The notes beneath the pieces were generated by a model. The model saw only the letters and a list, made by a program, of their open reading frames with translations. It was not told the DNA's origin and made no database searches. From NCBI GenBank assembly GCA_035403105.1, contig DAONEN010000001.1, positions 32,184 to 96,183 of the forward strand: 64,000 bases of DNA. The letters are read 5' to 3'. Shown here in pieces: positions 5,822 to 29,083 of this stretch. The position numbers and the translations under genes were made by a program. The stretch's first letter is position 1; each line of letters starts with the position of its first letter. The stretch is from Candidatus Egerieousia sp. GTDB taxonomy: Bacteria; Bacteroidota; Bacteroidia; Bacteroidales; UBA932.

Positions 5822-5857
5822 AAAAACGGCCTCTGATTTGTTTCAGAAGCCGTTTTT
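5822..5857. terminator. Bidirectional hairpin terminator
   Basis: A 14-bp stem with one mismatch (AAAACGGCCTCTGA / TCAGAAGCCGTTTT) flanked by an A-run and a T-run. It sits between the plus-strand ORF and the minus-strand tRNA-Arg. Confidence 0.7.
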
Positions 5858-5865
5858 GAATTTAG

Positions 5866-5939
5866 TGAATCGGGAGGGATTCGAACCCTCGACCCACAGC
5901 TTAGAAGGCTGTTGCTCTATCCAACTGAGCTACCGATCC
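5866..5939 (-). tRNA. tRNA-Arg (anticodon TCT)
   Basis: The reverse complement reads GGATCGGTAGCTCAGTTGGATAGAGCAACAGCCTTCTAAGCTGT...GGGTTCGAATCCCTCCCGATTCA. The anticodon loop is CTTCTAA. Confidence 0.9.
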
Positions 5940-6054
5940 GGTATGAGTTCCGCAGTTGCTGCCGGTATCTGCCCGGCGCCGCGAATCTCCTTCCGATTTT
6001 TAGGCTGCAAATGTAAACATTTTTTGCTTATTGTAAAATTTTACTCCCGACAGA

Positions 6055-8619: not shown

Positions 8620-8644
8620 AATTGATGCAGATAATCGCCGCAAA

Positions 8645-8681
8645 AATAACAAAAATCCCGCCAATCTCTTGGCGGGATTTT
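8645..8681 (-). terminator. Rho-independent terminator of clpB
   Basis: On the minus strand, AAAATCCCGCC-loop-GGCGGGATTTT is followed by a T-run directly after the clpB TAA. Confidence 0.8.
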
Positions 8682-10823
8682 TTATTTGAATAACAGCTGG
8701 TTATTCTTGTAGTCAATTTTGATTTTTTTACCGGATGATATTTCTCCGCTAATCAACTTTTCTGCGAGGGTGTTGATGACCTCTTTTTGCAGAAGACGCT
8801 TGATAGGGCGGGCACCGTAGGCGATATCGTATCCCTTGTCTGCCAGATAGTTAAGAGTGTTTTCTGTGAAGCTTAGGGTAATGCCTTTCTCTTCCAAAGT
8901 TTTTTCTATCTGGTCGATTTGTAACTTTAATATGCCTTTAACTTCCTCTTTTCCAAGAGGCTGGAACATTATGATTTCATCAATTCTGTTCAAAAATTCC
9001 GGTCTTATGCTCTTTTTAAGAATTGCCATTACTTTCTCTTTACACTCTGCCATCATCTGCGTTTTGTTGCTCTCATTTATCTTGGACATATAGTCCTGGA
9101 TAATGTCCGCACCAACGTTGCTGGTCATAATCAGAATGGTATTCTTAAAGTTGACGGTTCTTCCCTTGCCGTCTGTAAGCCTCCCGTCATCAAGTACTTG
9201 TAGAAGTATGTTAAAAACATCGGGATGCGCTTTTTCAATTTCGTCAAACAGAATAACCGAGTATGGTTTGCGCCTTACCGCCTCTGTCAGCTGGCCTCCT
9301 TCATCATATCCAACATATCCCGGAGGCGCTCCAATTAAACGAGTTACAGCAAAGCTTTCCTGATATTCACTCATATCTATCCTGGTCATCAGGTTCTCAT
9401 CATTGAACAAAAATTCTGCAAGAGCCTTTGCCAGCTCAGTTTTTCCAACACCGGTTGTACCCATGAACAAGAAAGAACCGATTGGCCTCTTCTCACTCTG
9501 AAGCCCTGCACGTGAACGCCTTACAGCATCAGCGACAGCTTCTATTGCCTCATCTTGTCCTACAACTCTTTTGTGCAATTCCTCCTCCAAATTAAGCAGC
9601 TTATCCTTTTCACTCTGCAGCATTCTCTTTACAGGTATGCCTGTCCATTTTGCCACAACCTCTGCAATATCCTCCGGCTTAACCTCTTCATTAATCAGCG
9701 GGTGCTCGTTGCTTTCCTCTTTTTTCTTAAGAACGGCAATCTCTTTCTCCAAACTTGCAACTTTGCCGTAGCGAATTTCAGCAACTTTTGCATAATCGCC
9801 GCTTCTCTCCGCCTCATCAGCTTCAAATTTCAGTTTGTCAATTTCTTGCCTCTTGGTCTGTATGCTGTCCAGAAGAGATTTCTCCTCCTTCCATTGTTTA
9901 TTGTAGATATCTTGCTGTTTTTTAAGAGATTCCAGCTGATTATTAATCTCAGTTAACTTTGGAGATTTGCCCTCTCTTCTGATAGCCTCTCTCTCAATTT
10001 CCAGCTGTTTTACTTTTCTGTTCAGCTCATCAATTTCCTCAGGGACGGAGTTCATCTCCAGCCTTAATTTTGCAGCCGCCTCATCCATCAGGTCTATTGC
10101 CTTATCCGGCAAGTACCTGTTAGTTATGTATCTGTGAGATAATTCTACTGCGGCAATAATAGCGTCATCCTCAATTTTTACCTTGTGATGGTTCTCATAT
10201 TTTGGCTTCAAACCCCTTAATATAGAGATACTTTCTGCGGGCGACGGTTCATCTACCATTACCATCTGGAATCTCCTCTCCAATGCTTTATCTTGCTCAA
10301 AATATTTCTGATATTCATCTAATGTTGTTGAGCCTACGCATCTTAACTCTCCTCTGGAAAGTGCAGGTTTTAGTATGTTTGCAGCATCCATTGCGCCACT
10401 GGTCTGACCCGCTCCAACCAAAGTGTGTATTTCATCTATGTATAGGATGATTTCTCCGTTGCTGTCAACTACCTCTTTTATAACGCCTTTCAGCCTCTCT
10501 TCAAATTCTCCCTGGTACTTTGCTCCTGCAATCAACGCTCCCATATCCAAAGAATAAATCACTTTATCCTTAAGGTTTTCCGCAACATCTCCATGCACAA
10601 TCCTCTGCGCAAGTCCTTCTGCAATAGCCGTCTTACCAACGCCCGGCTCACCTACAAGAATAGGGTTGTTCTTTGTCCTTCTGCTAAGGATTTGCAGAAC
10701 CCTCCTTATCTCATCGTCTCTTCCAATGACGGGGTCCAGCTTTCCCGCCTTTGCCCTCTGGTTTAGATTGACGGCATAACGGTCAAGCGTTTTTTCCTGT
10801 GATTGATTGTTGTTCATTTCCAT
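8682..10823 (-). CDS. clpB: ClpB-type AAA+ disaggregase lacking the N-terminal Clp_N domain
   Basis: Two Walker A boxes ([16 protein letters not shown]) and a long coiled-coil middle domain between NBD1 and NBD2. The 713-aa protein begins just before [15 protein letters not shown]. Confidence 0.9.
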
Positions 10824-15055: not shown

Positions 15056-15128
15056 GACTTGCTAGCTCAGCTGGTAGAGCACGACACTCTTAATGTTGGG
15101 GTCCAGGGTTCGATCCCCTGGCAGGTCA
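15056..15128 (+). tRNA. tRNA-Lys (anticodon CTT)
   Basis: Reads GACTTGCTAGCTCAGCTGGTAGAGCACGACACTCTTAATGTTG...GGGTTCGATCCCCTGGCAGGTCA. The anticodon loop is CTCTTAA. Confidence 0.9.
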
Positions 15129-15130
15129 CA

Positions 15131-15181: not shown

Positions 15182-16825
15182 TTACTTCAATAAAAAACTG
15201 AATGTGCTTCCATGCTTTGGTTCAGAATCAATTTGAAGCTCGCTGCCAAGATGTTTTAGAATACTCTTGCACAATGTCAGACCAAGTCCAAGCCCCTGCT
15301 TAAATGTATCTACTTTTTCAAATGGAGAGAATATTCTCTCTTTGTCCTCTTTGCTTATTCCAATGCCGGTGTCTTTAACATAAAAAAGGATACTATGGTC
15401 TTTATTAGGAGTATAGCCAATTGTAATACCGCCCTTTTCCGTAAATTTAAGCCCGTTTGAAATAAGGATAAACATAACTTGTTTTAGCAAGGCCTCATCC
15501 GTTGCTATGACGTGCTCTTCTGCAGGAAAAGAAGTATTTATATAGAGTCTTTTTTGCAAAATATCTTTGATTGTAAAAGACCGTTCCGCTGCGTATTCTT
15601 TTAAATCCTCAATAAAACTGTTTAGCTTAATCTCCTGCTTTGAGACTTTAACCAATCCGGCTGAAAAAGATGAAATGCAGAGAATGTTGTCTATAAGAGT
15701 TTTTAAAAGTTCATTATTCTGCTTTATTACAGGCATGAATTCTTCTCTTTGCTTTTGATTTTCACTGTTTACGTACAAGTCTGTGAATCCGATTATTGAA
15801 TTAAGAGGAGTGCGGATTTCATGGCTGATGGAGTTTAAAAAATCATCTGCATCTTTCTCTGCCTGAATAGCTTTTTTATTTAATTCCGATAATACAAATT
15901 CTTTCTCTTTTAGGTCTGTGATATCCATATTCAAGTCTATGAAATACGGATGATTTTTCTCCTTAAAAGCAGCGTCGTAATCGCTCTTGAAAATATTTAC
16001 CAGCGTCCATTTCTTTTTTCCGTTAGGCAATGTAATCATTACAGTGGTTACAAGCGGCGGAATTTTAGAACCAGGTCTTGGGTCTTTTGCAACGCTGGAG
16101 GTGTAATTTCTGATCTCTGTAAATGCTTCACCTTCAGTATGTACAAACCTACTGTTTGAAGTGGCGTTGCTGTTTTCGCCAAGGTTTTTAAACCAAGAAC
16201 CCGTCGCAAACATTATTTTTCCATCCAAGCTATATGACGCTACACCAACGTTTGAATTTGCAGATGCGGTCCTAAGCCTTTTCTCAATCTCTTCCTGCTC
16301 ATCTTCATTGCTCTCTATGTCGGTAATGTTTGCGGCAACAACAATGTAAGAGTATTTTTTTTCTGTAGTTCTTCTTATGATATATTTGAAAATATGCTCA
16401 GAATTTTCTGCGTTTGAATCGTCCCCGTCTAAAAAATAGGCATATCTGTTTAAAAACGTATCTATTTGATTACTAATGCTTTCTCCTGGCTTAAGATTTT
16501 TAATCACATCTGCAGTTGTGCCGTCAAACGGATTCTCAAAAAGATTTACGCACAACATTCCGCCAAGGGTTATGTTATTATCTTTCTCTTCCCCCTTTAT
16601 AATTATTTTTTCCCTGATTCCGTTTGAATTGTATAGGGCAAAACTCAACCCGGAATCTTTGCTGATATTTTCTATTCTATGGTGGTATTCAGTGATTTTA
16701 GCTTTAAGTTTTTCATTTGTAAGGCCAGCTGTTGATTTAAGAATAATTATCACAAGCAACACAATGACCAGCAGTAGTGTTACTCCCGACAGTGCATAAA
16801 TTGATGATATGGTACAAACGTTCAT
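15182..16825 (-). CDS. Sensor histidine kinase (kinase 4 of the array), catalytically intact
   Basis: N-terminal TM, PAS-like modules (SWFKNLGEN) and the H-box NSISHEIRTPLNSIIGF (His codon at 15821-15823). N box NGLKFT, G1 DTGIGI and G2 GLGLGLTL are present. Confidence 0.85.
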   Translation of the reverse strand: MNVCTISSIYALSGVTLLLVIVLLVIIILKSTAGLTNEKLKAKITEYHHRIENISKDSGLSFALYNSNGIREKIIIKGEEKDNNITLGGMLCVNLFENPFDGTTADVIKNLKPGESISNQIDTFLNRYAYFLDGDDSNAENSEHIFKYIIRRTTEKKYSYIVVAANITDIESNEDEQEEIEKRLRTASANSNVGVASYSLDGKIMFATGSWFKNLGENSNATSNSRFVHTEGEAFTEIRNYTSSVAKDPRPGSKIPPLVTTVMITLPNGKKKWTLVNIFKSDYDAAFKEKNHPYFIDLNMDITDLKEKEFVLSELNKKAIQAEKDADDFLNSISHEIRTPLNSIIGFTDLYVNSENQKQREEFMPVIKQNNELLKTLIDNILCISSFSAGLVKVSKQEIKLNSFIEDLKEYAAERSFTIKDILQKRLYINTSFPAEEHVIATDEALLKQVMFILISNGLKFTEKGGITIGYTPNKDHSILFYVKDTGIGISKEDKERIFSPFEKVDTFKQGLGLGLTLCKSILKHLGSELQIDSEPKHGSTFSFLLK

Positions 16826-18471
16826 TGTGATTGTTCTTGATTTTTACATTCGGCCCGTTTTGCAGGTATCCTGCACCACACGGTATTTATATCTTTTCCA
16901 AATTGTTTCTCAATGCTAAACTCTAGCCTGCCCCCAAGTATTGAAGCAAGATGATGCGCAATATATATTTCCAAACTTGTTTTTGCAGCTTTTTTGACAA
17001 GCGTCTTATAATTATTTGAAATCATCTCCGCTTTGCTCGGCGGTGTGCCGCTGTCTGTAATCGCAATGAATAATTCAATTTGCTCTCCTCTCTCTCTCTC
17101 CTCAGGTTTCTCTCTGACAGTGAACACAATAGAGCCATCATGGGTCCTTTTGGCGGAACTGATAGCAAGGTCTCTCACTATCTCTTTCACCAATCTTATA
17201 TCAATGGATAATTTGCTCTGAACGGTCGGGTGGTACTCAACAAAGACATTCTCTCTTAACATGGCTCTGAATTCTTCAACAACTTCCGCCACTATTACAC
17301 CAGGATCAACGTCGCTGAATTTTTGTACGTATGCATCAGACTCAATTCTTGAAATATTAATTACCTCAGATATTGTAAGCAAAAGTTCTGCATTGCTTCT
17401 GGATAATTCTTTCATCAAATGCTTCTTTTCTTCCTCTTTTGAGGCGCAGAATATCTTTGCAGTATCTAAAAGAATATCATCAAGAGGCTGCTGAATCTCT
17501 GTGCTCATGTTTACAATAGATTTGTTCTTAAGGTTTTCCGCAGATCTTGTCTTGTGCAGGGATTCCAATAATTTTATCTCTCTGTTGACTTGTTCATCAA
17601 TATTGAATAAGACAATTTCGGTCATCATCTTCCCTTCATCCGGAGAGTATTCCGTTAGAATTCCGTAAAATCTTATGTAGTGTGTTACTCCGCCAAAAAT
17701 TATTCTCAAATTTGCAGTAACATCAATTTTGTCTTTATTCTCTTTAGTGTTATTGATATTATACCCGTAATACTTTGCATATTCCTTTTCATTGAACTGA
17801 ATATTCCTAATTCTGTTCATAAAGTTTGTTACTTTGACAAATTCTTCTGAAGGAGCATTTTTAAAACTTTCTCTGAATGTGACTCCCGGTTTTACGTAAA
17901 GCAGGTCATACCACGCATTTGTAACGTTATATGAGTTGTTGAATGCATTAACGGTTGCAACTGCAATATTTGCCTTATCCATTGCAAGCTGAAACATATT
18001 ATACATTGCGCTCCTTGCGCTGCTGGTGGCTATATCCTCGCTCTTATCAATGACCGTCCCAATATATCCTTTGATTTTAAAAGATGTTATTTTTCTTATT
18101 CTTACTAGAAGATCGGAATACTTTGAGCTTTTTGTATGATATTGTATATCAAGTACTCCATATTTCTTAAGATGATTGAAATCTTCCTTTGGAATAACAG
18201 ATGAAGACTCAAAAAGATTAAAACCCTTGTATTCGCAGTTTTCGATATTTTTAAAAATACTTTCAAATTCAGAATTTACATCCTCTATATAACCTCTCTC
18301 TGTCATATAAAAAAACGCAACAGGAAGGCTGCTATTCAGCGTTTGAAATTCATCACTGACAGTTGAGAAATCTTTGGCAAGAGAAACCCTTTCCGCTCTT
18401 ATTTTTTTTCTCTTAAGATACAGATAGACAATGCCAATGATGAGAAGTATGTCAATTAAGGCAATAATCAT
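16822..18471 (-). CDS. Histidine-kinase-like protein with degenerate H-box and ATPase boxes (kinase 3, predicted pseudokinase)
   Basis: N-terminal TM and PAS-like modules. The H-box position reads IVNMSTEIQQPLDDIL, with Thr (codon 17500-17502) in place of His. The N box is lost (SSAKRT), G1 is DSGTP, and there is no G2 GxGLG. Confidence 0.75.
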   Translation of the reverse strand: MIIALIDILLIIGIVYLYLKRKKIRAERVSLAKDFSTVSDEFQTLNSSLPVAFFYMTERGYIEDVNSEFESIFKNIENCEYKGFNLFESSSVIPKEDFNHLKKYGVLDIQYHTKSSKYSDLLVRIRKITSFKIKGYIGTVIDKSEDIATSSARSAMYNMFQLAMDKANIAVATVNAFNNSYNVTNAWYDLLYVKPGVTFRESFKNAPSEEFVKVTNFMNRIRNIQFNEKEYAKYYGYNINNTKENKDKIDVTANLRIIFGGVTHYIRFYGILTEYSPDEGKMMTEIVLFNIDEQVNREIKLLESLHKTRSAENLKNKSIVNMSTEIQQPLDDILLDTAKIFCASKEEEKKHLMKELSRSNAELLLTISEVINISRIESDAYVQKFSDVDPGVIVAEVVEEFRAMLRENVFVEYHPTVQSKLSIDIRLVKEIVRDLAISSAKRTHDGSIVFTVREKPEERERGEQIELFIAITDSGTPPSKAEMISNNYKTLVKKAAKTSLEIYIAHHLASILGGRLEFSIEKQFGKDINTVWCRIPAKRAECKNQEQSQ

Positions 18472-21266
18472 TTTAAATCTTTAAGAACAAACCAAAACGT
18501 TGAACCATCACCTTCATTTGATATGACGCCAAGGTCTCCGTTTAAGTGTCTTACAATACTCTTACACAAAGATAGACCTAAGCCGGTTCCCATGGAATAA
18601 CTATCAAATTTTTCAAACTTGTTAAAAATTCTCTCTTGGTCTCTGTCCGATATTCCGCAGCCGGTATCCTTCACGTAGAAATATATCCCATTCTCTTGAG
18701 GCTGATAGCCAAATGTGATTGTTCCGTTCTTAGTAAATTTAACTGCATTTGAAAGCAGGTTAACCATTACTTGTCTAAAATTCCATTCATCTGTAACTAT
18801 TACATTATCTTCTAGGGGAATTTCTGCAAAGATCTCTATGTTTTTGGCCGTCAGCCGCTTTTCATTATGAAGCATGTGAACGGTTGCAGTCTTAAGTTCT
18901 CTGAATAAACCGTTTAACTTGACCTCGTCTTTTGAAAATTTGTAAAGTCCGGAATCGATTTTTGCTATAGAAAGAATATTATTGAACAGTTCAATAAGCA
19001 CATTATTATTTCTCTTAATAATGCTCGTTATATTTTCAACCTCTTTTGGATTTTGTTCTGTAAGTAACATCTTTGAGAAACCAACAATTGAAGTTAACGG
19101 TGTCCTAATTTCATGGCTGATGGAGTTTATAAATCTATCACTATCCTGGTAAGCAATGTGTACCTCTTTAACCTTTCTCTCCTCTATGATTTCTTTAACT
19201 TTATCCGCTGTAATGTTAAAGTTAATATCTACAACTACAGGGCCTGAGGCTTCTGACGTCTCTCTTAAAAATATGCTCTCCCTTATCCATTTATTTCTGC
19301 CGTTTGGCTGATTCTGAAGCTGAATGTCATTTGTAAACGATCCGGCTTTTCCTTTAATCAAATTCTGTCTAAAATCTGTGATAGCGGCTTTATCACCCTC
19401 TTTTAGATTAATATAGGAGGGCTGAATTAGTCCCGATTTATTGACTTTCTCACCAAGATTGCTGAACCAGAATTCAGTAGCATAACCTTCTCCGGAAATT
19501 ATATTATAGCACGCAATGCCAATATCGGTTGTGCTAATTGCATAATTTATTAATGAATCCAGTTTCTCCTTTTGTTCAACTTCTTGGATCTCTGATGTGA
19601 TATCGGAAATGACCATCATGTATTTATAAGGGGTGATTATCTCACCAATGATAGGGCTAACCATAAAGCTGATCCTCTTTGGGGTGCTTATCTCTCTTGT
19701 GACTTCTCTCTTATTCCTTATATTATTTACATCACTATCTGTAAAAATAGATGTTGTATACAGATTTTCGGGAAGATACTTTTCAATAGCACTTCTGATT
19801 TCTTGTTCTTTTGTCTTTATTATGCTAAATAATTTATTGCCCCTTCCGTCATAGACTGCAAAGTTTAGTTCAGACTCATTGAATAATGAGTTGTATTTTT
19901 CATATATTTTTTTGTCCTGATTAATTATGCGCCTGTTATCCACGTTCTTTTTTAAATGCATGAAATACATATAGATAAGTCGTGAGAATATTAACAGTCC
20001 AATTAGCAGAATGATAAATAATCCTGCATGTATTGCAATCCAGCTTCTTACAGTATTAACATATCTCACTCCGTAGAAATATTTGACGCCGCCCCCTAAC
20101 CCAAATCTATTAAGTGCCATTTTATTAATTATGTAATCGCCGTTTTTAAGGACATAAAAATCTGAAGGCGATCTGTATTTTTTGCCTTGGCTAAAGATGT
20201 TGCTTATTATCTCACATCCTTTTGCAGCTAATATACTTTCAGAAGGATTGTATCCTCCAACAATGTAATTATTAAAATATTGGAAAGAGTTTATTGAGAA
20301 GAGAGGGGACTTTAACTTAGTTGTGAATAAAGAATCAATCTCCTCTCTTGTGTAAGAACTTCCGTCTCCATCATAATTCCAAGCGTATGTGATAAATGCG
20401 GTTTTGGCATCCGAGTTAAGAATTACATTTAATATAGAGTCAGCGTTGTTGGAATTTCTAAAAATGGAGGAATACTTGATTCCAGGATACCCTTTTTTCA
20501 CAGTGCTCTTTAAGAGGGCATTGGCACATAGGCTTTCAATGTATGGGTTATCAATAAATATAATGTGCTTGACTTTTGGTGCAAGCTTACTTATAAGTTT
20601 TAGATTCTCATTAACAGGCGTTTGTGATACTACGCCAAATAATCTGTTTCTATATGATACGTTTTGATAATCAACGCCGGAAGATTTTCTAATGCCGGCT
20701 GGGATGCTCTTTGAGATTCCAAGCGCCACCACGGGGATTCCTTTCCACACACCTGCAAAAACTCCTGATATATTACATGCTATAGTAGCATCGTCTCCTA
20801 CTGTAACAATAATATCGGGACGTTTGCTTCCGTAGTTTGTAAGAATTTGTGAAATGACTTTTGTTGCATAACCGTATCCGGATGAGCAGTCAAAATTTAA
20901 AAAATAAGTATTGACCGTGTACTCCGGACTTCTCTTTTTTAATTGTGAGGCAAGACTATCCGCGGTGTTTTTTGCCCATAGTACATCTGGAGAAAAAGAA
21001 CTGATTATTAATATGTTGCGTGGAATAATGGGCTGCCCGTCTAATTCACGTACGCTAGGTATGCTGTCATCGTCTTTTTCAATAATGTAGACATAATCTC
21101 CTTTGTTATGAGTATTGCCTGCATCTTTTTCATTTTCATGTAATGCATATACACTGTCTTGTGTGCCAAACTGCGCAAATACATTTACATTTGTAAACAT
21201 TAAAAGTATGGCAGCCAGAATAGCGCTGGTGTAAAAATGGCTCTTTATTCTAATTAAATTTTTCAT
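18468..21266 (-). CDS. Sensor histidine kinase with a large periplasmic binding-protein-like domain (kinase 2), catalytically intact
   Basis: Signal peptide, ~390-aa periplasmic domain, TM, PAS-like modules (EFWFSNLGEK) and the H-box NSISHEIRTPLTSIVGF (His codon 19113-19115). NAVKFT, DTGCGI and GTGLGLSL are intact. Confidence 0.85.
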   Translation of the reverse strand: MKNLIRIKSHFYTSAILAAILLMFTNVNVFAQFGTQDSVYALHENEKDAGNTHNKGDYVYIIEKDDDSIPSVRELDGQPIIPRNILIISSFSPDVLWAKNTADSLASQLKKRSPEYTVNTYFLNFDCSSGYGYATKVISQILTNYGSKRPDIIVTVGDDATIACNISGVFAGVWKGIPVVALGISKSIPAGIRKSSGVDYQNVSYRNRLFGVVSQTPVNENLKLISKLAPKVKHIIFIDNPYIESLCANALLKSTVKKGYPGIKYSSIFRNSNNADSILNVILNSDAKTAFITYAWNYDGDGSSYTREEIDSLFTTKLKSPLFSINSFQYFNNYIVGGYNPSESILAAKGCEIISNIFSQGKKYRSPSDFYVLKNGDYIINKMALNRFGLGGGVKYFYGVRYVNTVRSWIAIHAGLFIILLIGLLIFSRLIYMYFMHLKKNVDNRRIINQDKKIYEKYNSLFNESELNFAVYDGRGNKLFSIIKTKEQEIRSAIEKYLPENLYTTSIFTDSDVNNIRNKREVTREISTPKRISFMVSPIIGEIITPYKYMMVISDITSEIQEVEQKEKLDSLINYAISTTDIGIACYNIISGEGYATEFWFSNLGEKVNKSGLIQPSYINLKEGDKAAITDFRQNLIKGKAGSFTNDIQLQNQPNGRNKWIRESIFLRETSEASGPVVVDINFNITADKVKEIIEERKVKEVHIAYQDSDRFINSISHEIRTPLTSIVGFSKMLLTEQNPKEVENITSIIKRNNNVLIELFNNILSIAKIDSGLYKFSKDEVKLNGLFRELKTATVHMLHNEKRLTAKNIEIFAEIPLEDNVIVTDEWNFRQVMVNLLSNAVKFTKNGTITFGYQPQENGIYFYVKDTGCGISDRDQERIFNKFEKFDSYSMGTGLGLSLCKSIVRHLNGDLGVISNEGDGSTFWFVLKDLK

Positions 21267-24200
21267 TTCTTCTCCTCCTTGTCCTCTGATAATACAGTTT
21301 TCAGTTCTTTCTTAAGTTCCGATTCATTTACTGGCTTAGAAATATATCCGTTAAATTGACCATCTCTTACCTGAGCTCTGCTTTTATCTGATGTATAGGC
21401 GGTTACTGCAATGATAGGTGTTTTTGTATCTTTCTTTCTTATAGCGGCGGTAGCTTGGAAACCATCCATCTTTGGCATCTTTATATCCATCAGCACCACG
21501 TCGGGTTTTTTCTCTAAAGTCATTTTAATAACTTCATATCCGTCGTGAGCATGAAGAATTATATAATTCTTTCTCAAAATGAAGTTTAGCAACTGAAAGT
21601 TGTTTTGATTGTCTTCCGCAATAAGAATAACTTTCTGTCCTTTGTTCTTAGAAGTTGTTGCATTCTCCAGCACTCCCTTGATGGCAGATGTGGATTCTGC
21701 TGCATAATGCTTTGGAACAATGCACCATACAATGTTGCCTTTGCCCCTTTCCCCTTGTTTGTATCCGATTTCACCGTGAAGAGATCTGACAATAGAGCGG
21801 GCAATCGGAAGGTCTAATCCCTGTCCTACATAGGACTCATCTGCAAGATGGTCAAATCTGTCAAATAATCTTGCTCTCCTCTCTCCGGATATGCTCTCTC
21901 CGTCATCGTTAGCATACATGTAAACATTGTTTTCTCTCACTTCATAACCAAGCTTGACCGTACCGGCCTTTGAGTGTTCCATAAATGATATGGCGTTGTC
22001 GCATAAAAGTTCAATGATGTTTTGAACTCTTGATTTATCTGACAGAAGAATATTATTACCTTGCTTTGCAAACTCAATGTTGATGTTATTATTTTTGGTT
22101 TTTTCAGCAGCCTCCGCGGCAACTTGCTCAAATACAGCCTCAAGATTAAATTCTGCCATTTGTTTTTGTGCGCTGTTAGACTCAATGTCAGAAACTGAAA
22201 TGATTTGCTGAATCATTTTCAAAAATTTATCACTGTTCTCTTCTATGTATTTCTGCAGTTCTTCTTTATTATCTGACGGTGTTGCTTCAACCAGCAGTTC
22301 TGCAAATCCTACAAGCGCATTTAGAGGTGTTTTAAGTTCATTCCCCATATTGCTGATAAGCGAGTTCCTCAGCTTTGTAGAGTCTACATATTTGTCATAT
22401 GTCTTAGAAAGCTCATCCTCTTTTTGCTTCTGTGAATCTATGTCAGAGATTATGGCGTAACACAATACTTGATTCTCTTCTTTATTGAAACTGCTGACAG
22501 ATATTCTCAGATGAAGCCAATGAGTAGAGTCGTCATTGTTTTTAACTCTGACATCTTTTGAAAATGAAGTTTCAGTTCCTTCTCTAGCCTGGTCGGTAAA
22601 TCTTATTATGGCTGCAAGATCCTCTTTTACAAGATTATTAAAGCTAGTGTCCAGTTGCGTGCCATTCTTTATTTTTAGGTTATAGAACCATGAATCGGTC
22701 CCAATATAGGAGAACTCTTTCTTTGCCAAGTCAAATTTTGCAACACCGTATTTTGACGCGTCCATTGCCAAAAGGAAAGAGGTATTTATCCTATCCTTTT
22801 CTGCACGCTGCATATATTCATCTGTATTGTTGACAATTAGAAGAATTATAGCATCTTTGTCTTCTATGGTTTTAGGTATGAATATTGCCCTTTGATATAT
22901 GTTGCTGTTGTTGACCTTAAAAATGTAATGCTTATCTGCAATCTCTTTGTGTCTTATTTTTTGCAGCGTTGCATCAGATACATAAGGAGAATTGAATATA
23001 GAGAACTCCGCGGATTTGTTATAGTCAGGAACCACAAGGGAGAGTTCCTCCTTTGCCTTGGAATTATACTCAACAAATTTGCCAAGATCTGTGAATACTG
23101 CAATACCTATTGGAGAATTTTTAAACAATGCGCTGTAATCTTTTAACAGCTTATTGTACAGTTCAACATCCTCTGTGACTTTTTTATTTCTCTTGCGGAC
23201 TGCAAAATTTATAAGTAGTGCAAATAGCAACAGAAGGGTCAGCAGCGCGGGGAGAATCTTAACGGCATGCTTTGTAAGAAAGCTTGTACGGTCTTCATAC
23301 ATAATGTTGTACTTCTTGCCTGCCAGCTTAATCCCAATCTTGTCCGCAGCAACTTTGTTAACGGACATTTTTTCCGGAGAAATGTATTTCAACTGTATAG
23401 ATGAAGCGGGCGTGCCGGAAAGAATTTGTTTTAATGAGGCTGCCGTTGCCGCTGCAAGTTTTGGAACACTTATAAAAATTCCGCCAACCATTGGGGTGTT
23501 TGCACCTGCAGGTATCTGCTTTAAAATCACGACAGGTACATTGTTGGAATTGTATAAGGAATTGTAACCGGAAGAATTATCTGTACTAAAAGAGTTAATT
23601 AGAATTGCCGCATTCTTTTTTGCGAAATTGGAAATAGTAGAATTAATAATATCAGCATTAACTTTCTTTATATCGGAAACTATAAAATTAATGTTTCTTG
23701 CACTAAGCTGCGCTTCAAACTTGTTTGTGTTAAGGCAATCTTCAAAAGTCTTTTCTGAAAAATAAATTGCAGTTTTTGTGTTGGGAAACAAGACTTTAAG
23801 AGCAATTATGGTAGCTCTAATATTATCTTTTCCAAAGACTCCTGTTACATTATATCCGGCGGTTTCATCTTTAAGAGAGCATATTAAACTGTCGGGAACC
23901 GTATGAGTTGCAAGGAAATATGTGTAATCCGCCATTGTTTCATCAGAGGGAGCGCAGACTACAATTGGAATATTCCTGAGTTGAATACCAGATTTCTTTA
24001 ACACCATCCATGCCTCTGTTCCAACAATAACTACAGCATCAGGGGCTTTATGAATCCTGGAGAACACATCGGAAATTTCTGAAACGCCTTCCGCCAGAGA
24101 TTGTTTATGTACGATATCTGTGTTTGCTAGGCTGACACTTACGCCGGGTATGATTTTTTTTGCATAAAAGGTAATTTTACTGCAAATCAATTGATTCCAT

Positions 24201-24328
24201 GCGTCATCATAACGGTATGAACTAATGATTTGTATATTCTTCTCCTTACCTGTGCTTTGGGCAAATGCCGGTAAAACTGACATTAGCGCAAGTGCGGCAA
24301 CAAAGATAGAACTGAACAACTTTTTCAT
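21263..24328 (-). CDS. Hybrid kinase-like protein with receiver domain; phospho-acceptor His replaced by Asn (kinase 1)
   Basis: Signal peptide, periplasmic binding-protein-like domain paralogous to kinase 2, TM and PAS-like modules. The H-box position reads LISNMGNELKTPLNALVGF (Asn codon 22340-22342). G1 is DDGES and G2 is GQGLDL. The C-terminal REC is intact (EDN..., LMDIKMPKMDG, AVTAY, SKP). Confidence 0.8.
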   Translation of the reverse strand: MKKLFSSIFVAALALMSVLPAFAQSTGKEKNIQIISSYRYDDAWNQLICSKITFYAKKIIPGVSVSLANTDIVHKQSLAEGVSEISDVFSRIHKAPDAVVIVGTEAWMVLKKSGIQLRNIPIVVCAPSDETMADYTYFLATHTVPDSLICSLKDETAGYNVTGVFGKDNIRATIIALKVLFPNTKTAIYFSEKTFEDCLNTNKFEAQLSARNINFIVSDIKKVNADIINSTISNFAKKNAAILINSFSTDNSSGYNSLYNSNNVPVVILKQIPAGANTPMVGGIFISVPKLAAATAASLKQILSGTPASSIQLKYISPEKMSVNKVAADKIGIKLAGKKYNIMYEDRTSFLTKHAVKILPALLTLLLLFALLINFAVRKRNKKVTEDVELYNKLLKDYSALFKNSPIGIAVFTDLGKFVEYNSKAKEELSLVVPDYNKSAEFSIFNSPYVSDATLQKIRHKEIADKHYIFKVNNSNIYQRAIFIPKTIEDKDAIILLIVNNTDEYMQRAEKDRINTSFLLAMDASKYGVAKFDLAKKEFSYIGTDSWFYNLKIKNGTQLDTSFNNLVKEDLAAIIRFTDQAREGTETSFSKDVRVKNNDDSTHWLHLRISVSSFNKEENQVLCYAIISDIDSQKQKEDELSKTYDKYVDSTKLRNSLISNMGNELKTPLNALVGFAELLVEATPSDNKEELQKYIEENSDKFLKMIQQIISVSDIESNSAQKQMAEFNLEAVFEQVAAEAAEKTKNNNINIEFAKQGNNILLSDKSRVQNIIELLCDNAISFMEHSKAGTVKLGYEVRENNVYMYANDDGESISGERRARLFDRFDHLADESYVGQGLDLPIARSIVRSLHGEIGYKQGERGKGNIVWCIVPKHYAAESTSAIKGVLENATTSKNKGQKVILIAEDNQNNFQLLNFILRKNYIILHAHDGYEVIKMTLEKKPDVVLMDIKMPKMDGFQATAAIRKKDTKTPIIAVTAYTSDKSRAQVRDGQFNGYISKPVNESELKKELKTVLSEDKEEKK

Positions 24329-24351: not shown

Positions 24352-25332
24352 CTATTTATTCTCCAAAGCATTTTTCAGGTAATTGTTAACGTTTACATCT
24401 GATGTCGGACGTATTACTTTTATACCGGTTATGGATTTTCTTGAATTTACATATTCATTGATGGTCATTTTATCTAATTCTACCTTCATATCGGCAAAAG
24501 ACGCATGGATAAAACCAACTCTTCCATTCTCTACGCAGGCAATTGCCACGTGAGCTATATCAAGTCCTGGAGTAGCTGACATATAACAGATTATATCTCC
24601 GCTGCATATTTTGTCCTCACAATCTGCAATCTTCTCTTTTTGGATATAAGTAATTGGTGTTTTGTTAAGATTATTTTCAATTTCCGTTATGTGACTTAGT
24701 TCCTCTGCTGAGGTTAATTGTTTATATCTCTGATAGTTGCGGCTCATAAAAAAAATAGGATGACTATAAATATCTCCTCCAAGACTCATTGTGATATCTT
24801 TAATGTTGCCAAATTTTTCGCTCTGTCTTATCCACTCGGTTGTATAATGCAAGCGGCTGGAATAACTTCCGATAATCCCATTCCTGTAACGGCTTACTCT
24901 TTCATTTTCAGCAAATTGTTGAAATGTGGCCTTTTTGCCGCTCCTGTGTGCGGTAATAGCCAAATTTAAACAAGTTTCCACAAAAATTATACAATCTGTT
25001 TGGTGCAAGTTGATGGTTAACTGCTCATTAGAGTCTGCCTTGTCAAGTGTTCCGGCAACATAGGGTGTGCCAATAAGCATTTTGGCCGCCATTATCATCA
25101 AATCAGGAACGCTTCTGTCTGAATAGGGTTGCAGTGTTATTAAAATTTTATCTGCAAGATATTTGTCAAGACTAGTTGTCACGATAGAATTCTCAACCAA
25201 AACAGGGGTAATGGAATCCAACTGTGAACGTTGTTCTACGCTGCAAAATTGAGCTCTAATGCAATTAATTGGCGCAATTGATAAAGTTAGCACAAACGCT
25301 ATGCTAATTATACACAGAGCCCTTTTTTTCAT
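24352..25332 (-). CDS. Secreted DUF1460 (AmiA-like, N-acetylmuramoyl-L-alanine amidase-like) domain protein
   Basis: Signal peptide. The motifs LIGTPYVAGTLDK, LTINLHQTDCIIFVETCLNLA and GDIICYMS...LDIAHVAIA...FIHAS are typical of DUF1460 as I remember it. Confidence 0.65.
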   Translation of the reverse strand: MKKRALCIISIAFVLTLSIAPINCIRAQFCSVEQRSQLDSITPVLVENSIVTTSLDKYLADKILITLQPYSDRSVPDLMIMAAKMLIGTPYVAGTLDKADSNEQLTINLHQTDCIIFVETCLNLAITAHRSGKKATFQQFAENERVSRYRNGIIGSYSSRLHYTTEWIRQSEKFGNIKDITMSLGGDIYSHPIFFMSRNYQRYKQLTSAEELSHITEIENNLNKTPITYIQKEKIADCEDKICSGDIICYMSATPGLDIAHVAIACVENGRVGFIHASFADMKVELDKMTINEYVNSRKSITGIKVIRPTSDVNVNNYLKNALENK

Positions 25333-25445: not shown

Positions 25446-26474
25446 CTAAAAACTATTTTGTTGAAGAATGACGCACCAATTGTGCTCGTCTTTAATTTCG
25501 CCGTTTTGAATTCCTACGATGTGGTTGTAAAGTTTAATGCATGTTTCAATTCCATCATAGGTATAGCGCTTGCACTCGCTGACATCAATATCCGGTTTAT
25601 CGTCAATTGATTTAACAGGGGTGATAACAACGGCAGTACCACATTCACCAACTTCTTTGAACTCTGCAAGTTCCTCAGAAGGAACTCTGCGTCTCTCCAC
25701 CTTCATTCCGAGGTCTTTGGCAGCAACTTCCAGAGATTTATTGGTGATGGACGGAAGGATACTGTTGGAAAGAGGTGTAATATATGTATTGTCCTTAATA
25801 CCAAAGAAATTTGATGAGGAAAACTCGTCTATGTATTTGTGTTCTATAGGATCCAAGTAAAGAACCGCCTTATAACCTTGCTGTTTTGCAACTTGTCCCG
25901 CATGAATAGATGCTGCATAATTGCCTCCAACTTTGTAGCAACCTGTTCCGTGGCCCGCTGCGCGGTCATACTTTCTTGCTATAACACCATTTACGGCAAC
26001 TAAGTTGCCTTGTCCGGAATAAGAACCAACGGGGGCAACTGCAACGAATAACATTTGTTTTTTTGCCGGAGCAATTCCAAGCTGGGATCCTGAACCAAAA
26101 AGAACCGGTCTTATATATAGGGAGGCACCGCTTCCGTAAGGAGGAAGATACCTCTCATTCTCCTTTACCGCCATTATACATAGGTTTGTAAAATCTTCTG
26201 TTGTAGGTGCGTCCATTCCAACATATGCAGCGGAAGACTGCATTCTTTTTGCATTCTCATCCGGGCGGAAAAGTCTGATTTTGCCATCTTTGCCCCTAAA
26301 AGCTTTTAAACCCTCAAAACACTCAATACCATAATGAAGTGAAGGAGCCAAACCACTTAAAGGGATATTAATATCAGAACTGATAACCGGCTTGCCCCAG
26401 ATGCCGTCTTCATACGCACATGAAATATATTTATCAGTAGGGGTGAACGAGAAACTTAATTTACTCCAATCCAT
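25446..26474 (-). CDS. ilvE: Branched-chain amino acid aminotransferase (class IV)
   Basis: Length and motifs (LHYGIECFEGLKAFR; GTGCYKVGGNYAAS; ECGTAVVITPV) fit the eukaryote-like BCAT subgroup. Confidence 0.85.
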   Translation of the reverse strand: MDWSKLSFSFTPTDKYISCAYEDGIWGKPVISSDINIPLSGLAPSLHYGIECFEGLKAFRGKDGKIRLFRPDENAKRMQSSAAYVGMDAPTTEDFTNLCIMAVKENERYLPPYGSGASLYIRPVLFGSGSQLGIAPAKKQMLFVAVAPVGSYSGQGNLVAVNGVIARKYDRAAGHGTGCYKVGGNYAASIHAGQVAKQQGYKAVLYLDPIEHKYIDEFSSSNFFGIKDNTYITPLSNSILPSITNKSLEVAAKDLGMKVERRRVPSEELAEFKEVGECGTAVVITPVKSIDDKPDIDVSECKRYTYDGIETCIKLYNHIVGIQNGEIKDEHNWCVILQQNSF

Positions 26475-27403: not shown

Positions 27404-29083
27404 ATGCCCTGGAAAAAACTCATGACACTAGTGTGTTGCGTCTTTTTGATGTGCACTTCTTTTTTTGTTTTTGCACAGAGCACTCTTAAAGAGGAAATCA
27501 TCCGTTATGTATCTGATACATCAAATAAACATATAGACAGTTCTCATGATGCAGAGCCGATAATAATTAATCACAAAATCATAGCAAGCGGTGACAGACA
27601 GTTTTATCCTTATGAGTATATTAATAAGGATGGAGCGCCAGATGGTTTTGATGTTGAACTGTTCCGGGCTCTTATGAAGAATCTTCATTTGGACTACGAT
27701 CTTACGCTTGGGGATTGGTCTCAGGTTCACCAACTTATGAAGAATGAAAAAATTGATGTAATTGTCGGAGTAATGTATTCTCCCCAGAGGGCCAAGTATA
27801 TCAAGTTTAGTATCCCCCATAGTATCCTTACGCTCTCTTTTACAGTAAGAAATGGGAGCGGTTTTGAGTCTTCAGATAATTTGAGGGGCAAGAGGATTGT
27901 GGTGCAGAAAATGGACAGGGGATATGACTATTTGCATGAAACGGGTTTTACAGATAAAATAGTGGCAGTGAACACAATAAAAGAGGGTTTTAGAATGCTT
28001 GAATCAGGAGATTGCGATGCCGTTTTATTTGATCATCTCTCTTCACTGACTATGGCAAGAGATTTAAAGTTGGAAGATACCAAGATTATTGCCTCAAATA
28101 TTGCTCCTCAACGCTATTCGATTGGTGTCAACAATAAAGATGAAGACTTGTTATTTCTTCTCAATGAGGGACTTTATGAGATGAAAGTCAGCGGAGAATA
28201 CGATAAAATTTATGATAAGTGGTTTAATGTTACCGACCCTGGCGGGGAGAGGTACAAGCGCACGATATTCATCGTGAAATGTGTTTTGGTCTCACTTTGG
28301 GTTTTGCTGATGTTGGGTGTAATTTTTATTTTGGTATTAAAGTCTAAAGTAAAGAGATCAACAATGGAAATTCTAAAAGAAAGGGATAGGGCGGAAAGGG
28401 CAGATAAATTGAAAAGTGTTTTCTTATCAAATATGAGTCATGAAATTCGTACACCGCTTAATGCAATTGTCGGTTTTGCAAGCCTTTTGTGCGAGGAGGG
28501 GCAAGACATTGAGGATAAAAAAAACTATGCGGAGATTATAAAATGTAACAGCAGGCAATTGCTTCAACTTGCGAGCGATATACTTGATACTGCAAGAATT
28601 GAATCAGGTACTCTAGTCCTTAATAAAAACGATTTTACCATAGAAGATCCGTGTATGGAAGCTTTTATTTCAGTGAAGGTTAACTTTAATAGCAAGGACG
28701 TAATTCTGCAAGAAGACTATCAGTGTGATTGTCTTGTGAATGCAGATTTGCTAAGAATAGAGCAGGTTGTCGCAAACTTTCTTACCAATGCGATAAAGTT
28801 CACTAAAAAGGGCTCAATCACTTTGAGTACAATTCGTTGTCAAGATGTTGATATGGTTGAAGTCTCTGTTACAGATACCGGTATTGGCATTTCTAATGAA
28901 GATGCCAATACCGTATTTGACAGATTTAAGCAAGTTGGCAAAATGGGCAAAGGCACCGGTCTCGGCTTGTCTATAAGCAAGAACATCATAGAATTAAGCG
29001 GAGGGGAGATTGGAGTTGATTCTGAAGAGGGAAAAGGCTCCAAGTTCTGGTTTCGCCTTCCTATAGCGGGAATGTCTCACTAA
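27404..29083 (+). CDS. Sensor histidine kinase with periplasmic SBP_bac_3 (Venus-flytrap) domain
   Basis: Signal peptide, SBP3-like region (DRQFYPYEYINKDGAPDGFDVELF), TM, and the H-box VFLSNMSHEIRTPLNAIVGF. NAIKFT, DTGIGI and GTGLGLSI are intact. There is no PAS and no REC. Confidence 0.85.
   Translation: MPWKKLMTLVCCVFLMCTSFFVFAQSTLKEEIIRYVSDTSNKHIDSSHDAEPIIINHKIIASGDRQFYPYEYINKDGAPDGFDVELFRALMKNLHLDYDLTLGDWSQVHQLMKNEKIDVIVGVMYSPQRAKYIKFSIPHSILTLSFTVRNGSGFESSDNLRGKRIVVQKMDRGYDYLHETGFTDKIVAVNTIKEGFRMLESGDCDAVLFDHLSSLTMARDLKLEDTKIIASNIAPQRYSIGVNNKDEDLLFLLNEGLYEMKVSGEYDKIYDKWFNVTDPGGERYKRTIFIVKCVLVSLWVLLMLGVIFILVLKSKVKRSTMEILKERDRAERADKLKSVFLSNMSHEIRTPLNAIVGFASLLCEEGQDIEDKKNYAEIIKCNSRQLLQLASDILDTARIESGTLVLNKNDFTIEDPCMEAFISVKVNFNSKDVILQEDYQCDCLVNADLLRIEQVVANFLTNAIKFTKKGSITLSTIRCQDVDMVEVSVTDTGIGISNEDANTVFDRFKQVGKMGKGTGLGLSISKNIIELSGGEIGVDSEEGKGSKFWFRLPIAGMSH

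What the first reader, a model, noticed from the sequence alone, without database searches (positions are those of the whole stretch)
16822..24328. Alternating loss of the phospho-acceptor histidine: kinases 1 and 3 are predicted pseudokinases, kinases 2 and 4 are intact
The H-box positions read directly from the sequence as follows. Kinase 1: SNMGNELKTPL (Asn, codon 22340-22342). Kinase 2: SISHEIRTPL (His, 19113-19115). Kinase 3: NMSTEIQQPL (Thr, 17500-17502). Kinase 4: SISHEIRTPL (His, 15821-15823). Kinase 3 has also lost the N box and G2 box. Kinase 1 has weakened G1 and G2 boxes (DDGES, GQGLDL) yet keeps a receiver domain with every conserved residue (ED, D in LMDIKMP, T, K). Kinase 1 therefore cannot phosphorylate its own receiver by the canonical route. 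The receiver is most simply a target of kinase 2 and/or 4, with the His-less members acting as sensory or regulatory subunits. The intact reading frames and retained sensor domains argue against simple decay.
Basis: seen in the sequence. Interest (0 to 1): 0.65.

Follow-up and report, generated by a model that had tools for sequence, protein, structure and literature searches.

The report
Two kinase–pseudokinase sensor pairs in one operon
Four back-to-back sensor-kinase genes of a wastewater Bacteroidales bacterium form two pairs, each made of a conserved catalytically dead kinase followed by an intact one, and the same pairing recurs across a wider uncharacterised family.

Summary
K1 (21263-24328) has Asn663 and K3 (16822-18471) has Thr324 exactly where K2 (His718) and K4 (His335) carry the phospho-acceptor histidine. 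No conserved alternative His lies nearby. K3 also lacks the N-box Asn and the G1/G2 glycines. K1 has variable G1/G2 boxes but a fully intact receiver (E905-D906, D948, T976, K998).

This is not decay. The same four-gene cluster, with the same pattern, is present in 7 other lineages (K1 identity down to 52%, K3 down to 32%). dN/dS is about 0.04-0.4 in the degenerate domains.

The pattern comes from duplication of an older gene pair. The upstream member is a hybrid-type "A" protein and the downstream member an intact "B" kinase.

- B members always keep His.
- A members lost it repeatedly (N, S, T, K, Y, D, E...) and then lost the ATPase domain, or the ATPase and receiver domains.
- Relatives with an intact-His A member exist.
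- Every complete His-less A gene examined is followed directly by an intact kinase.

The most likely mechanism is inferred, not shown. The dead members would be sensory or regulatory partners of their neighbours, and K1's receiver would be phosphorylated in trans by K2. This is a new variant of the known kinase/pseudokinase theme (RetS-GacS, FasBC, DivL).

The parts
24352..25332 (-). AmiA-like (PF07313) gene, 23 nt upstream of K1. It sits immediately upstream of the K1 orthologue in the 8 related loci that cover this position, and is probably co-transcribed.
   Evidence: Pfam E=1e-39. Synteny in L001, L002, L004-L008 and L010. A metatranscriptome contig spans 24063-24415.
21263..24328 (-). K1: 1021-aa His-less hybrid pseudokinase. 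Order: signal peptide, periplasmic PF04392 SBP-like domain, TM 354-379, about 250 aa PAS-like region, DHp, degenerate CA, receiver.
23324..24055 (-). K1 periplasmic solute-binding-protein-like domain (PF04392, aa 92-335)
   Evidence: Pfam E=1.3e-9, 38 bits against a cut-off of 25.9. dN/dS 0.05-0.12.
22178..22369 (-). K1 DHp (HisKA, aa 654-717). Asn663 (codon 22340-22342, AAT) replaces the phospho-acceptor His. The E664-x-x-T667 phosphatase motif is retained and invariant.
21710..22039 (-). K1 CA domain (HATPase_c, aa 764-873). N-box Asn and G1 Asp are kept. G1 is DDGES and G2 is GQGLDL, both variable between orthologues.
21302..21628 (-). K1 receiver domain (aa 901-1009) with the complete active site E905-D906, D948 (codon 21485-21487), T976 and K998
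   Evidence: Pfam E=1e-25
18468..21266 (-). K2: 932-aa intact kinase. Domains: PF04392 periplasmic domain, TM, PAS-like region, HisKA 18948-19139 with His718 (codon 19113-19115), HATPase_c 18480-18791. It has no receiver.
   Evidence: DHp dN/dS 0.01-0.02.
16822..18471 (-). K3: 549-aa membrane-anchored pseudokinase. It has an N-terminal TM helix and a PAS-like region. The DHp (about 17317-17544) has Thr324 (codon 17500-17502, ACA). The CA-like domain (16861-17202) lacks the N-box Asn, the second G1 Gly and G2.
15182..16825 (-). K4: 547-aa intact kinase. Domains: N-terminal TM, PAS-like region, HisKA 15665-15847 with His335 (codon 15821-15823), HATPase_c 15188-15499. Its core is 48% identical to K2.

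Best explanation
The cluster encodes two kinase/pseudokinase pairs, K1+K2 and K3+K4. They arose by tandem duplication of an older gene pair: an upstream hybrid-type 'A' sensor followed by a downstream plain 'B' kinase.

K2 and K4 are normal autokinases. K1 and K3 cannot autophosphorylate, because they lack the acceptor His and their ATP-binding domains are eroded.

K1 and K3 are nevertheless maintained as non-catalytic partners of their intact neighbours. They would bring extra sensory input: a second, different periplasmic SBP-like domain in K1 and PAS-like domains in both. They would act on the neighbour through the retained DHp dimerisation helix, most simply as DHp heterodimers or hetero-oligomers made in fixed ratio from translationally coupled genes.

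K1 also supplies the only receiver in the operon, and K2 (possibly also K4) would phosphorylate it in trans. K1 plus K2 together would then amount to one split hybrid kinase. K1's retained E-x-x-T motif could additionally let it dephosphorylate that receiver.

Shown here: the anatomy, the conservation, the purifying selection, the recurrence of the pairing and transcription. Inferred: physical association, trans-phosphorylation, the sign of regulation and the output (no HPt or response regulator is encoded in the operon).
For: 1. Substitutions sit at the aligned His position, and there is no conserved substitute His.
2. The four-gene cluster has the same N/S - H - T/S - H pattern in L001, L002/L003, L004, L005, L006 (K1 and K2 only), L007 and L008. 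L010 holds a still more distant K1 orthologue with Asn.
3. dN/dS: K1 DHp 0.03-0.19; K1 CA 0.04-0.14; K3 DHp 0.06-0.31; K3 CA 0.07-0.41.
4. ATGA stop/start overlaps occur at all three junctions.
5. Paralogy and tree:
   - K2 and K4 cores are 48% identical, and the K3 core is closest to K1.
   - The NJ tree puts all His-bearing downstream kinases in one clade (85% bootstrap), with K2+L015_g2 and K4+L015_g4 as sisters. K1 groups with L015_g1/L010_g1 (95%) and K3 with L015_g3 (75%).
6. The pairing recurs outside the genus.
   - L011: a 722-aa A protein (Asn, no CA, no REC) followed by an intact 957-aa kinase.
   - L012: a 711-aa A protein (Tyr, REC) followed by an intact 526-aa kinase.
   - L015: H, H, Lys (no CA, REC), H.
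   - L013: both members intact.
   - In a metagenome scan, all 6 complete His-less A genes with enough downstream sequence (L016-L019, L021, L023) are followed within -11 to +11 nt by an intact kinase of about 950 aa.
7. The receiver active site is conserved in A proteins lacking His, and even in one lacking any CA domain. Receiver identity K1 vs L015_g3 is 49%, against 25% overall.
8. K1 keeps E664/T667 and residues like those of K2/K4 at the HK853-type specificity positions +8/+11/+15 (A,G,L vs S,G,M and S,G,L). K3 differs there (D,L,K). This is read; the positions come from the title of PDB entry 4jau.
9. Low-level metatranscriptome coverage of all four genes.
10. [quoted passage not shown] FasB/FasC form a heterodimer with a proposed pseudokinase (PMC12675982).
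Against: - There is no direct evidence of K1-K2 or K3-K4 contact or of phosphotransfer.
- AlphaFold models were too poor to examine interfaces (pLDDT 45 and 54), and no multimer prediction was possible.
- A heterodimer with a dead CA on one side works only if K2 autophosphorylates in cis. This was not assessable.
- No HPt protein or output regulator is encoded in the operon, nor among the ORFs scanned. About 41-62 kb of the window was not scanned. What the K1 receiver does is therefore unknown.
- The E-x-x-T motif is not kept in more distant A proteins (N-D-I-R-M in L010 and L011).
- Support within the A-type part of the tree is weak, including the K1+K3 sister grouping at 25%.
- The metatranscriptome contigs are shallow and may contain DNA.
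Confidence: 0.55

Rival explanations
1. RetS-like antagonists. K1 (and K3) would be dedicated negative regulators of K2/K4. The K1 receiver would drain phosphoryl groups as a sink. The K1 DHp would act as a transmitter phosphatase through E-x-x-T. DHp binding would disrupt the productive K2 (K4) homodimer. The pairs would then be inhibitor/kinase pairs rather than a split hybrid kinase that passes the signal on.
For: - The K3 core's best solved-structure relatives are the RetS entries (6dk7/6dk8 and the RetS-like 7n0e, E about 1e-7), and K1 also hits RetS.
- The ATPase domains are degenerate as in RetS, and K1 retains E664 and T667.
- All three RetS mechanisms are experimentally documented (PMC5992135; PMC8498467).
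- No HPt or response regulator in the operon could carry a K1 receiver signal onward.
Against: - retS and gacS are not adjacent genes and RetS keeps its His (my own knowledge of the Pseudomonas system, not tested here). Here the genes are translationally coupled and the His is gone.
- Fixed 1:1 co-expression of a pure inhibitor with its target is an odd design.
- K2 has no receiver or cognate regulator of its own nearby, so the K1 receiver is the obvious forward acceptor.
- Distant A proteins lack both the receiver and the E-x-x-T Thr, yet remain paired.
Confidence: 0.22
2. Stand-alone repurposed pseudokinases, like DivL or PsmA. K1 and K3 would act as scaffolds or reverse-signalling adaptors for partners encoded elsewhere. 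The K1 receiver would be phosphorylated by an unlinked kinase or by acetyl phosphate. Adjacency to K2/K4 would reflect only duplication history.
For: - DivL (Tyr for His) and PsmA (a hybrid pseudokinase) work through protein-protein contacts rather than phosphotransfer (PMC12963549).
- L012_A carries Tyr at the His position, like DivL.
- K1 matches the DivL structure 4q20.
Against: - The pseudo/intact adjacency is maintained across lineages that are only 23-30% identical, with tight or overlapping junctions, in every complete locus examined. Mere history would have been scrambled.
- Tandem duplicates that no longer interact usually disperse or are lost.
Confidence: 0.13
3. K1 and/or K3 are still catalytic through a non-canonical route. 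A different residue would be phosphorylated: another His, or Thr324/Ser as in Ser/Thr-kinase derivatives of the GHKL fold. Alternatively, K1's CA domain would phosphorylate K2's His in trans.
For: - K1 retains the N-box Asn and the G1 Asp, which are the main Mg-ATP contacts.
- The distant K1 orthologue in L010 has Asn at the His position but fully canonical N, G1 and G2 boxes. A His-less protomer with a working ATPase domain therefore exists in the family.
Against: - K1 has no His at 630-730, and K3's nearby His residues are not conserved.
- K3 lacks the N-box Asn and both Gly-rich boxes.
- K1's G1 and G2 vary freely between orthologues: DDGES/DNGDS/DTGNK/DDANI and GQGLDL/GQELNL/GQRLDL/DQGLDL.
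- The residue at the His position varies (N/S; T/S/K), which does not fit a conserved alternative acceptor.
Confidence: 0.06
4. Simple decay. K1 and K3 would be recently inactivated genes on the way to loss.
For: K3 evolves fastest of the four (32% identity where K2 keeps 58%). Its CA domain has the highest dN/dS, up to 0.41 in close pairs.
Against: - Full-length open frames occur in all 8 clusters.
- dN/dS is well below 1 in every domain.
- Sequence blocks around the substituted position are invariant (E664-L672 in K1).
- The substitutions are shared across deep divergence.
Confidence: 0.02

Closest known systems
RetS-GacS multikinase pair of Pseudomonas aeruginosa
   Same: - A hybrid sensor with a degenerate ATPase domain that cannot autophosphorylate acts on an intact kinase.
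- It does so through receiver-mediated phosphoryl capture, E-x-x-T transmitter phosphatase activity and DHp contact (PMC5992135, PMC8498467).
- RetS is the best solved-structure match of the K3 core.
   Different: - RetS keeps its His, has two receivers and a 7TMR-DISMED2 sensor, and is not encoded next to gacS (recalled from my own knowledge, not tested here).
- Here the His is lost, the genes overlap, the sensor is PF04392/PAS-like, and the intact partner has no receiver or HPt of its own.
FasB/FasC of group A Streptococcus
   Same: Two adjacent kinase-like genes whose products heterodimerise rather than homodimerise. One is proposed to be a pseudokinase, and together they make a single functional transmitter (PMC12675982).
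   Different: - In Fas the pseudokinase (FasC) keeps the acceptor His and loses the need for its kinase domain. Here the pseudokinase loses the His.
- Fas has an adjacent response regulator (FasA) and no fused receiver.
DivL (Caulobacter) and PsmA (Streptomyces) histidine pseudokinases
   Same: Conserved HK-fold proteins lacking the acceptor His (Tyr in DivL; a hybrid architecture with a receiver in PsmA). They are kept for protein-protein signalling (PMC12963549). One family member here (L012_A) also has Tyr.
   Different: Neither is described in the text read as one half of an operonic pair with an intact paralogue, and PsmA also lacks the E-x-x-T motif. K1 keeps E-x-x-T and sits directly in front of its paralogous kinase.
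RcsC/RcsD of enterobacteria
   Same: RcsD has a His-less pseudo-HK domain and works with the hybrid kinase RcsC. The NCBIfam RcsD model is the second-best hit of K3 (E = 6e-12, far below its cut-off).
   Different: RcsD carries the HPt domain that relays the phosphoryl group. No HPt is present in K1-K4.

Membership tests
Catalytically competent HisKA-type histidine kinase | Phospho-acceptor His in the H-box of the DHp domain | tested here: not met
   K1 has Asn663 and K3 has Thr324 at the aligned position. K2 (His718) and K4 (His335) meet the feature.
Catalytically competent HisKA-type histidine kinase | ATP-binding N, G1 (DxGxG) and G2 (GxGLGL) boxes in the CA domain | tested here: not met
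   - K3: N-box Asn replaced by Ser438, G1 is DSGTP, no G2.
- K1: N-box Asn and G1 Asp are present, but G1 is DDGES and G2 is GQGLDL, both variable in orthologues.
- K2 and K4 are canonical and nearly invariant.
Catalytically competent HisKA-type histidine kinase | Homology to the HisKA and HATPase_c domains | tested here: met
   K1: HisKA 39 bits and HATPase_c 49 bits, both above the cut-offs. K3: Pfam is below cut-off (HATPase_c 16 bits), but phmmer to RetS gives E = 1e-7 over DHp+CA, and NCBIfam TorS/RcsD give 1e-13/6e-12.
Bacterial histidine pseudokinase (DivL / RetS / RcsD / PsmA / FasC kind) | HK-like fold with loss of a residue or domain essential for autophosphorylation | tested here: met
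Bacterial histidine pseudokinase (DivL / RetS / RcsD / PsmA / FasC kind) | Maintained by selection (conserved orthologues, dN/dS well below 1) | tested here: met
   8 clusters plus L010. dN/dS is 0.03-0.41 in the degenerate domains.
Bacterial histidine pseudokinase (DivL / RetS / RcsD / PsmA / FasC kind) | Demonstrated absence of autokinase activity and a defined partner | not testable with these tools
   This needs 32P-ATP autophosphorylation and interaction assays. Only gene-neighbourhood evidence for the partner is available.
Hybrid histidine kinase (intramolecular His-to-Asp relay) | Receiver domain with an intact active site fused to the transmitter | tested here: met
   K1 receiver, Pfam E = 1e-25, with E905-D906, D948, T976 and K998.
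Hybrid histidine kinase (intramolecular His-to-Asp relay) | Own phospho-His as donor for the fused receiver | tested here: not met
   Asn663, and no His in residues 630-730. Intact-His relatives L013_g1 and L015_g1 show the ancestral state.
RetS family proper | 7TMR-DISMED2 sensor, HExxT with His retained, two C-terminal receivers | tested here: not met
   The defining features are recalled from my own knowledge, apart from HExxT. K1 has a PF04392 sensor, one receiver and N-E-L-K-T. K3 has no receiver.

The most novel reading that the evidence does not exclude
The A/B gene pair defines a widespread, undescribed class of obligate heteromeric sensor kinases in Bacteroidales. One protomer would be a dedicated ligand-binding, receiver-bearing pseudokinase and the other the sole catalytic subunit. 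This would be a bacterial counterpart of heterodimeric Venus-flytrap receptors such as GABA-B. Repeated, independent loss of His, then the ATPase domain, then the receiver in the A protomer would trace the stepwise evolution of a pseudoenzyme subunit. The window's four-gene operon would be two such heteromers feeding one receiver.
Probability: 0.3. Interest if true: 0.7.

Novelty: new variant of a known kind. Interest (0 to 1): 0.5.

Why it matters
Histidine pseudokinases are known only from a handful of individually studied cases. How often and how they arise is poorly charted.

This locus gives a natural series within one family. It runs from an intact hybrid kinase, to His lost with the ATPase domain intact, to an eroded ATPase domain, to ATPase deleted, to receiver deleted as well. 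At every stage the protein sits directly in front of an intact paralogous kinase.

That makes three questions directly testable:
- whether sensor kinases can be obligate heteromers;
- whether a receiver can be served by the neighbouring protomer (a split hybrid kinase);
- in what order catalytic features are lost once a partner makes them redundant.

There is also a practical point for annotation. K3-type proteins are currently called 'hypothetical' or mis-called 'histidine kinase', and counts of kinases in Bacteroidales genomes overestimate the number of phosphodonors.

Tried and rejected
- **Alternative acceptor His.** Rejected. K1 has none in residues 630-730, and K3's H306 and H351 are not conserved.
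- **Structure route.** The AlphaFold2 models of K3 (pLDDT 45) and K1 (pLDDT 54), built from shallow alignments, were too poor. Foldseek on K1 only returned generic PAS-kinase structures. No fold search was run on K3.
- **Reference-genome scan with K3.** It gave a single locus, from Candidatus Egerieousia sp.. Metagenome look-ups had to supply the orthologues.
- **Pfam on K3.** It fails to see HisKA. Pairwise HMM searches were needed.
- **First tree attempt.** A Biopython bootstrap tree timed out. It was redone with numpy distances.
- **HPt or response regulator search.** The operon has none. Among the ORFs scanned I found only an unrelated OmpR-type pair at 62.5-64 kb and a membrane LytTR protein at 154-837. 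ORFs between about 41 and 62 kb were not scanned.
- **Literature.** Searches for PF04392 sensor kinases, for Bacteroides His-less kinases and for adjacent His-less kinases gave no description of this family in the held library. The Myxococcus EspA/EspC precedent that I recall was not retrievable there and is therefore not used as evidence.
- **Not attempted.** Cis/trans autophosphorylation prediction.

Full report
**1. What is in the window**

Four genes lie head to tail on the minus strand:
- K1, 21263-24328, 1021 aa
- K2, 18468-21266, 932 aa
- K3, 16822-18471, 549 aa
- K4, 15182-16825, 547 aa

Each stop overlaps the next start in the sequence ATGA.

Domain architecture from Pfam and a hydropathy scan:
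- K1: signal peptide, periplasmic PF04392 solute-binding-like domain, one TM helix, about 250 aa of PAS-like sequence, HisKA, HATPase_c, receiver.
- K2: the same architecture without a receiver.
- K3 and K4: only an N-terminal membrane anchor in front of the PAS-like region and the kinase core.

All four share the PAS-like region at 20-25% identity. The K2 and K4 cores are 48% identical. K1's core is nearest to K2 (29%) and K3's is nearest to K1 (23%).

An AmiA-like gene sits 23 nt upstream of K1. A convergent tRNA-Lys and a phospholipid-synthesis gene lie beyond K4. The closest reference genome is a Candidatus Egerieousia sp. MAG (Bacteroidales). The sequence occurs in activated-sludge, wastewater and digester metagenomes.

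**2.

The quoted codons translate as stated: AAT Asn663, CAT His718, ACA Thr324, CAT His335.

Alignments to solved kinases put Asn663 and Thr324 on the phospho-acceptor His, and a four-way alignment agrees. K1 has no His anywhere between residues 630 and 730. K3's two nearby His residues are not conserved in orthologues.

K3 also has Ser in place of the N-box Asn, lacks the second G1 glycine and has no G2 box. Pfam detects its ATPase domain only at E = 0.016 and misses its DHp.

K1 keeps the N-box Asn and the G1 Asp. Its G1 and G2 boxes deviate from consensus and differ from orthologue to orthologue. K1's receiver has the full catalytic set E905-D906, D948, T976 and K998.

As a background rate, 105 of 105 alignable generic hybrid kinases found with K1 carry His at that column. 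So do the other three HisKA kinases in the window.

**3. It is conserved, not decaying**

Look-ups of K1 homologues returned the same cluster (AmiA-like, K1, K2, K3, K4) in seven further lineages. Identity to the window falls to these values:

| Gene | Lowest identity to the window |
|---|---|
| K1 | 52% |
| K2 | 58% |
| K3 | 32% |
| K4 | 41% |

The state of the His position across these clusters:
- K1: Asn in seven clusters, counting the window, and Ser (AGT, one step from AAT) in the most distant one.
- K3: Thr in six and Ser in the most distant one (L006 ends before K3).
- K2 and K4: always His, with almost invariant catalytic boxes.

Nei-Gojobori dN/dS:

| Domain | dN/dS |
|---|---|
| K1 DHp | 0.03-0.19 |
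| K1 CA | 0.04-0.14 |
| K3 DHp | 0.06-0.31 |
| K3 CA | 0.07-0.41 |
| K2 DHp | 0.01-0.04 |

K3 is the least constrained, but all domains are under purifying selection. The block E664-L672 next to the lost His is invariant in K1. Metatranscriptome contigs from activated sludge cover all four genes at low depth, and one contig crosses the AmiA-like/K1 junction.

**4. Where the pattern comes from**

A profile search with K3 over 1.8 billion representative proteins showed that the PAS-like+DHp module defines a larger family. Inspecting its members and their loci gave a series of states.

- **Both members intact.** In L013, an intact hybrid kinase (His) is followed by an intact kinase.
- **K1-type intact, K3-type degenerate.** L015 sits in the same syntenic position as the window. 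Its four genes read: His (K1 orthologue, 36% identical), His (K2 orthologue), Lys with no ATPase domain but an intact receiver, and His (K4-like).
- **His lost, ATPase boxes canonical.** L010 has a K1 orthologue with Asn but canonical ATPase boxes.
- **Tyr at the His position.** In L012, a Tyr-substituted, receiver-bearing protein is followed after 3 nt by an intact kinase.
- **DHp-terminal proteins.** About 20 clusters of proteins 656-740 aa long end right after a His-less DHp. The residue at that position is S, E, T, C, D, N, R or F. One of them, L011_A, is followed by an intact kinase.
- **Metagenome scan for this last type.** All six complete loci with enough downstream sequence have an intact kinase of about 950 aa within -11 to +11 nt.

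A neighbour-joining tree of the shared region gave these groupings:
- All downstream, His-bearing kinases form one clade (85% bootstrap).
- K2+L015_g2 and K4+L015_g4 are sister groups.
- K1 groups with L015_g1/L010_g1 (95%).
- K3 groups with L015_g3 (75%).
- The deeper A-type branches are unresolved.

Together this indicates an ancient A/B pair that was duplicated before the split from the L015 lineage. The His was then lost repeatedly in the A member only. The K3-lineage loss came before the K1 loss. Asn, Tyr and Asp are each one nucleotide away from His, and Ser, Thr and Lys are one step from Asn.

**5. How it most likely works**

Shown here: the two His-less proteins are conserved, transcribed, selected and always placed directly before an intact paralogue. 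Receivers with intact active sites persist in family members that have neither His nor an ATPase domain.

Inferred:
- K1 and K3 cannot autophosphorylate.
- They act with or on their neighbours through the retained DHp, most simply as heteromers produced in fixed ratio from coupled genes.
- They contribute distinct sensory domains. The K1 and K2 periplasmic domains share only about 26% identity over about 100 aligned residues.
- K1's receiver is phosphorylated in trans by K2, possibly also by K4.

K1 keeps the E-x-x-T motif that RetS uses for transmitter phosphatase activity. It also has K2/K4-like residues at the positions that set kinase-receiver specificity in HK853, and K3 does not. This is read from the translations; the positions come from the 4jau entry title. 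K1 may therefore both present and reset the receiver.

Whether the net effect is forward relay (a split hybrid kinase) or RetS-like damping cannot be decided from sequence. The output is unknown, because the operon holds no HPt protein or response regulator, and none that could serve was found among the ORFs scanned. ORFs between about 41 and 62 kb were not scanned.

**6. Comparison with known systems**

The nearest experimentally studied cases:
- RetS-GacS (PMC5992135, PMC8498467)
- FasB/FasC (PMC12675982)
- DivL and PsmA (PMC12963549)
- RcsC/RcsD

The locus works like these in that a dead kinase paralogue modulates or completes an active one. It is not a member of any of those families. The sensors differ. 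The His is lost, whereas RetS and FasC retain it. There is no HPt, unlike RcsD. The partner is the adjacent, translationally coupled paralogue.

I found no description of this Bacteroidales family in the held literature. That library is incomplete.

**7. Verdict**

One refinement applies: the alternation reflects duplication of an old pseudo/intact pair, with stepwise erosion of the upstream member.
- Novelty: a new variant of a known kind.
- Interest: moderate (0.5). Pseudo-histidine-kinases are no longer surprising. A conserved operonic pair family that shows repeated His loss, with the receiver on the dead subunit, is a useful and testable system.

Noticed in passing
window 15056-15129 (+): A tRNA-Lys(CTT) gene lies between the convergent CDP-alcohol phosphatidyltransferase gene and the end of K4. 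It explains the very high RNA depth and the tRNA-like loose ends seen at 15.06-15.12 kb in run X25.
   Followed up: partly
window 27404-29083 (+); compare L002, L004, L006, L007, L008, L010, L015: A fifth, intact kinase (SBP_bac_3 sensor) sits between the PhoU_div and PALP genes in the window and in L007. It is absent at that spot in L002, L004, L006 and L008. In L010 and L015 a PHO4 phosphate transporter occupies the position. This slot next to the cluster is therefore variable.
   Followed up: partly
L009 8001-12236 (P0181); also P0182, P0207, P0250: TPR-containing proteins of about 1400 aa carry two kinase cores in one chain. The first has His and the second has R, S, E or K at the His position. 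This is a natural fusion of an intact core and a His-less core. P0181 lies beside glycoside hydrolase genes and an ECF sigma/FecR/TonB set.
   Followed up: partly
L026 and L028 about 4914-9916 (human gut metagenome contigs): Both the His-less A gene and the downstream kinase are split into two reading frames each in these loci. This is either joint pseudogenisation of the pair or assembly frameshifts.
   Followed up: no
window 154-837 (-) and 2111-4183 (+): A LytTR DNA-binding protein has a hydrophobic, membrane-like N-terminal half and no detectable receiver domain. It lies near another SBP_bac_3 histidine kinase.
   Followed up: no
K1-K4 codon alignments, window vs L001/L007 vs L008: Pairs with almost the same protein identity (89-91%) differ about 3.5-fold in synonymous divergence (dS about 0.3 vs about 1.1). 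dN/dS is therefore 0.14-0.25 in the close pairs and about 0.05 in the others. This may be the usual time-dependence of dN/dS, or recombination.
   Followed up: no
window 25446-26474 (-): The class IV aminotransferase gene upstream of the AmiA-like gene has about 10-fold higher metatranscriptome contig depth than the kinase genes in run X28. This suggests a separate, stronger promoter. Together with the amidase-like gene it hints at a link to cell-wall or D-amino-acid metabolism.
   Followed up: no
window 18406/18488, run X29: One metatranscriptome contig shows an 'opposite strands' joint at the K2/K3 junction. It is a single contig and probably an assembly artefact.
   Followed up: no
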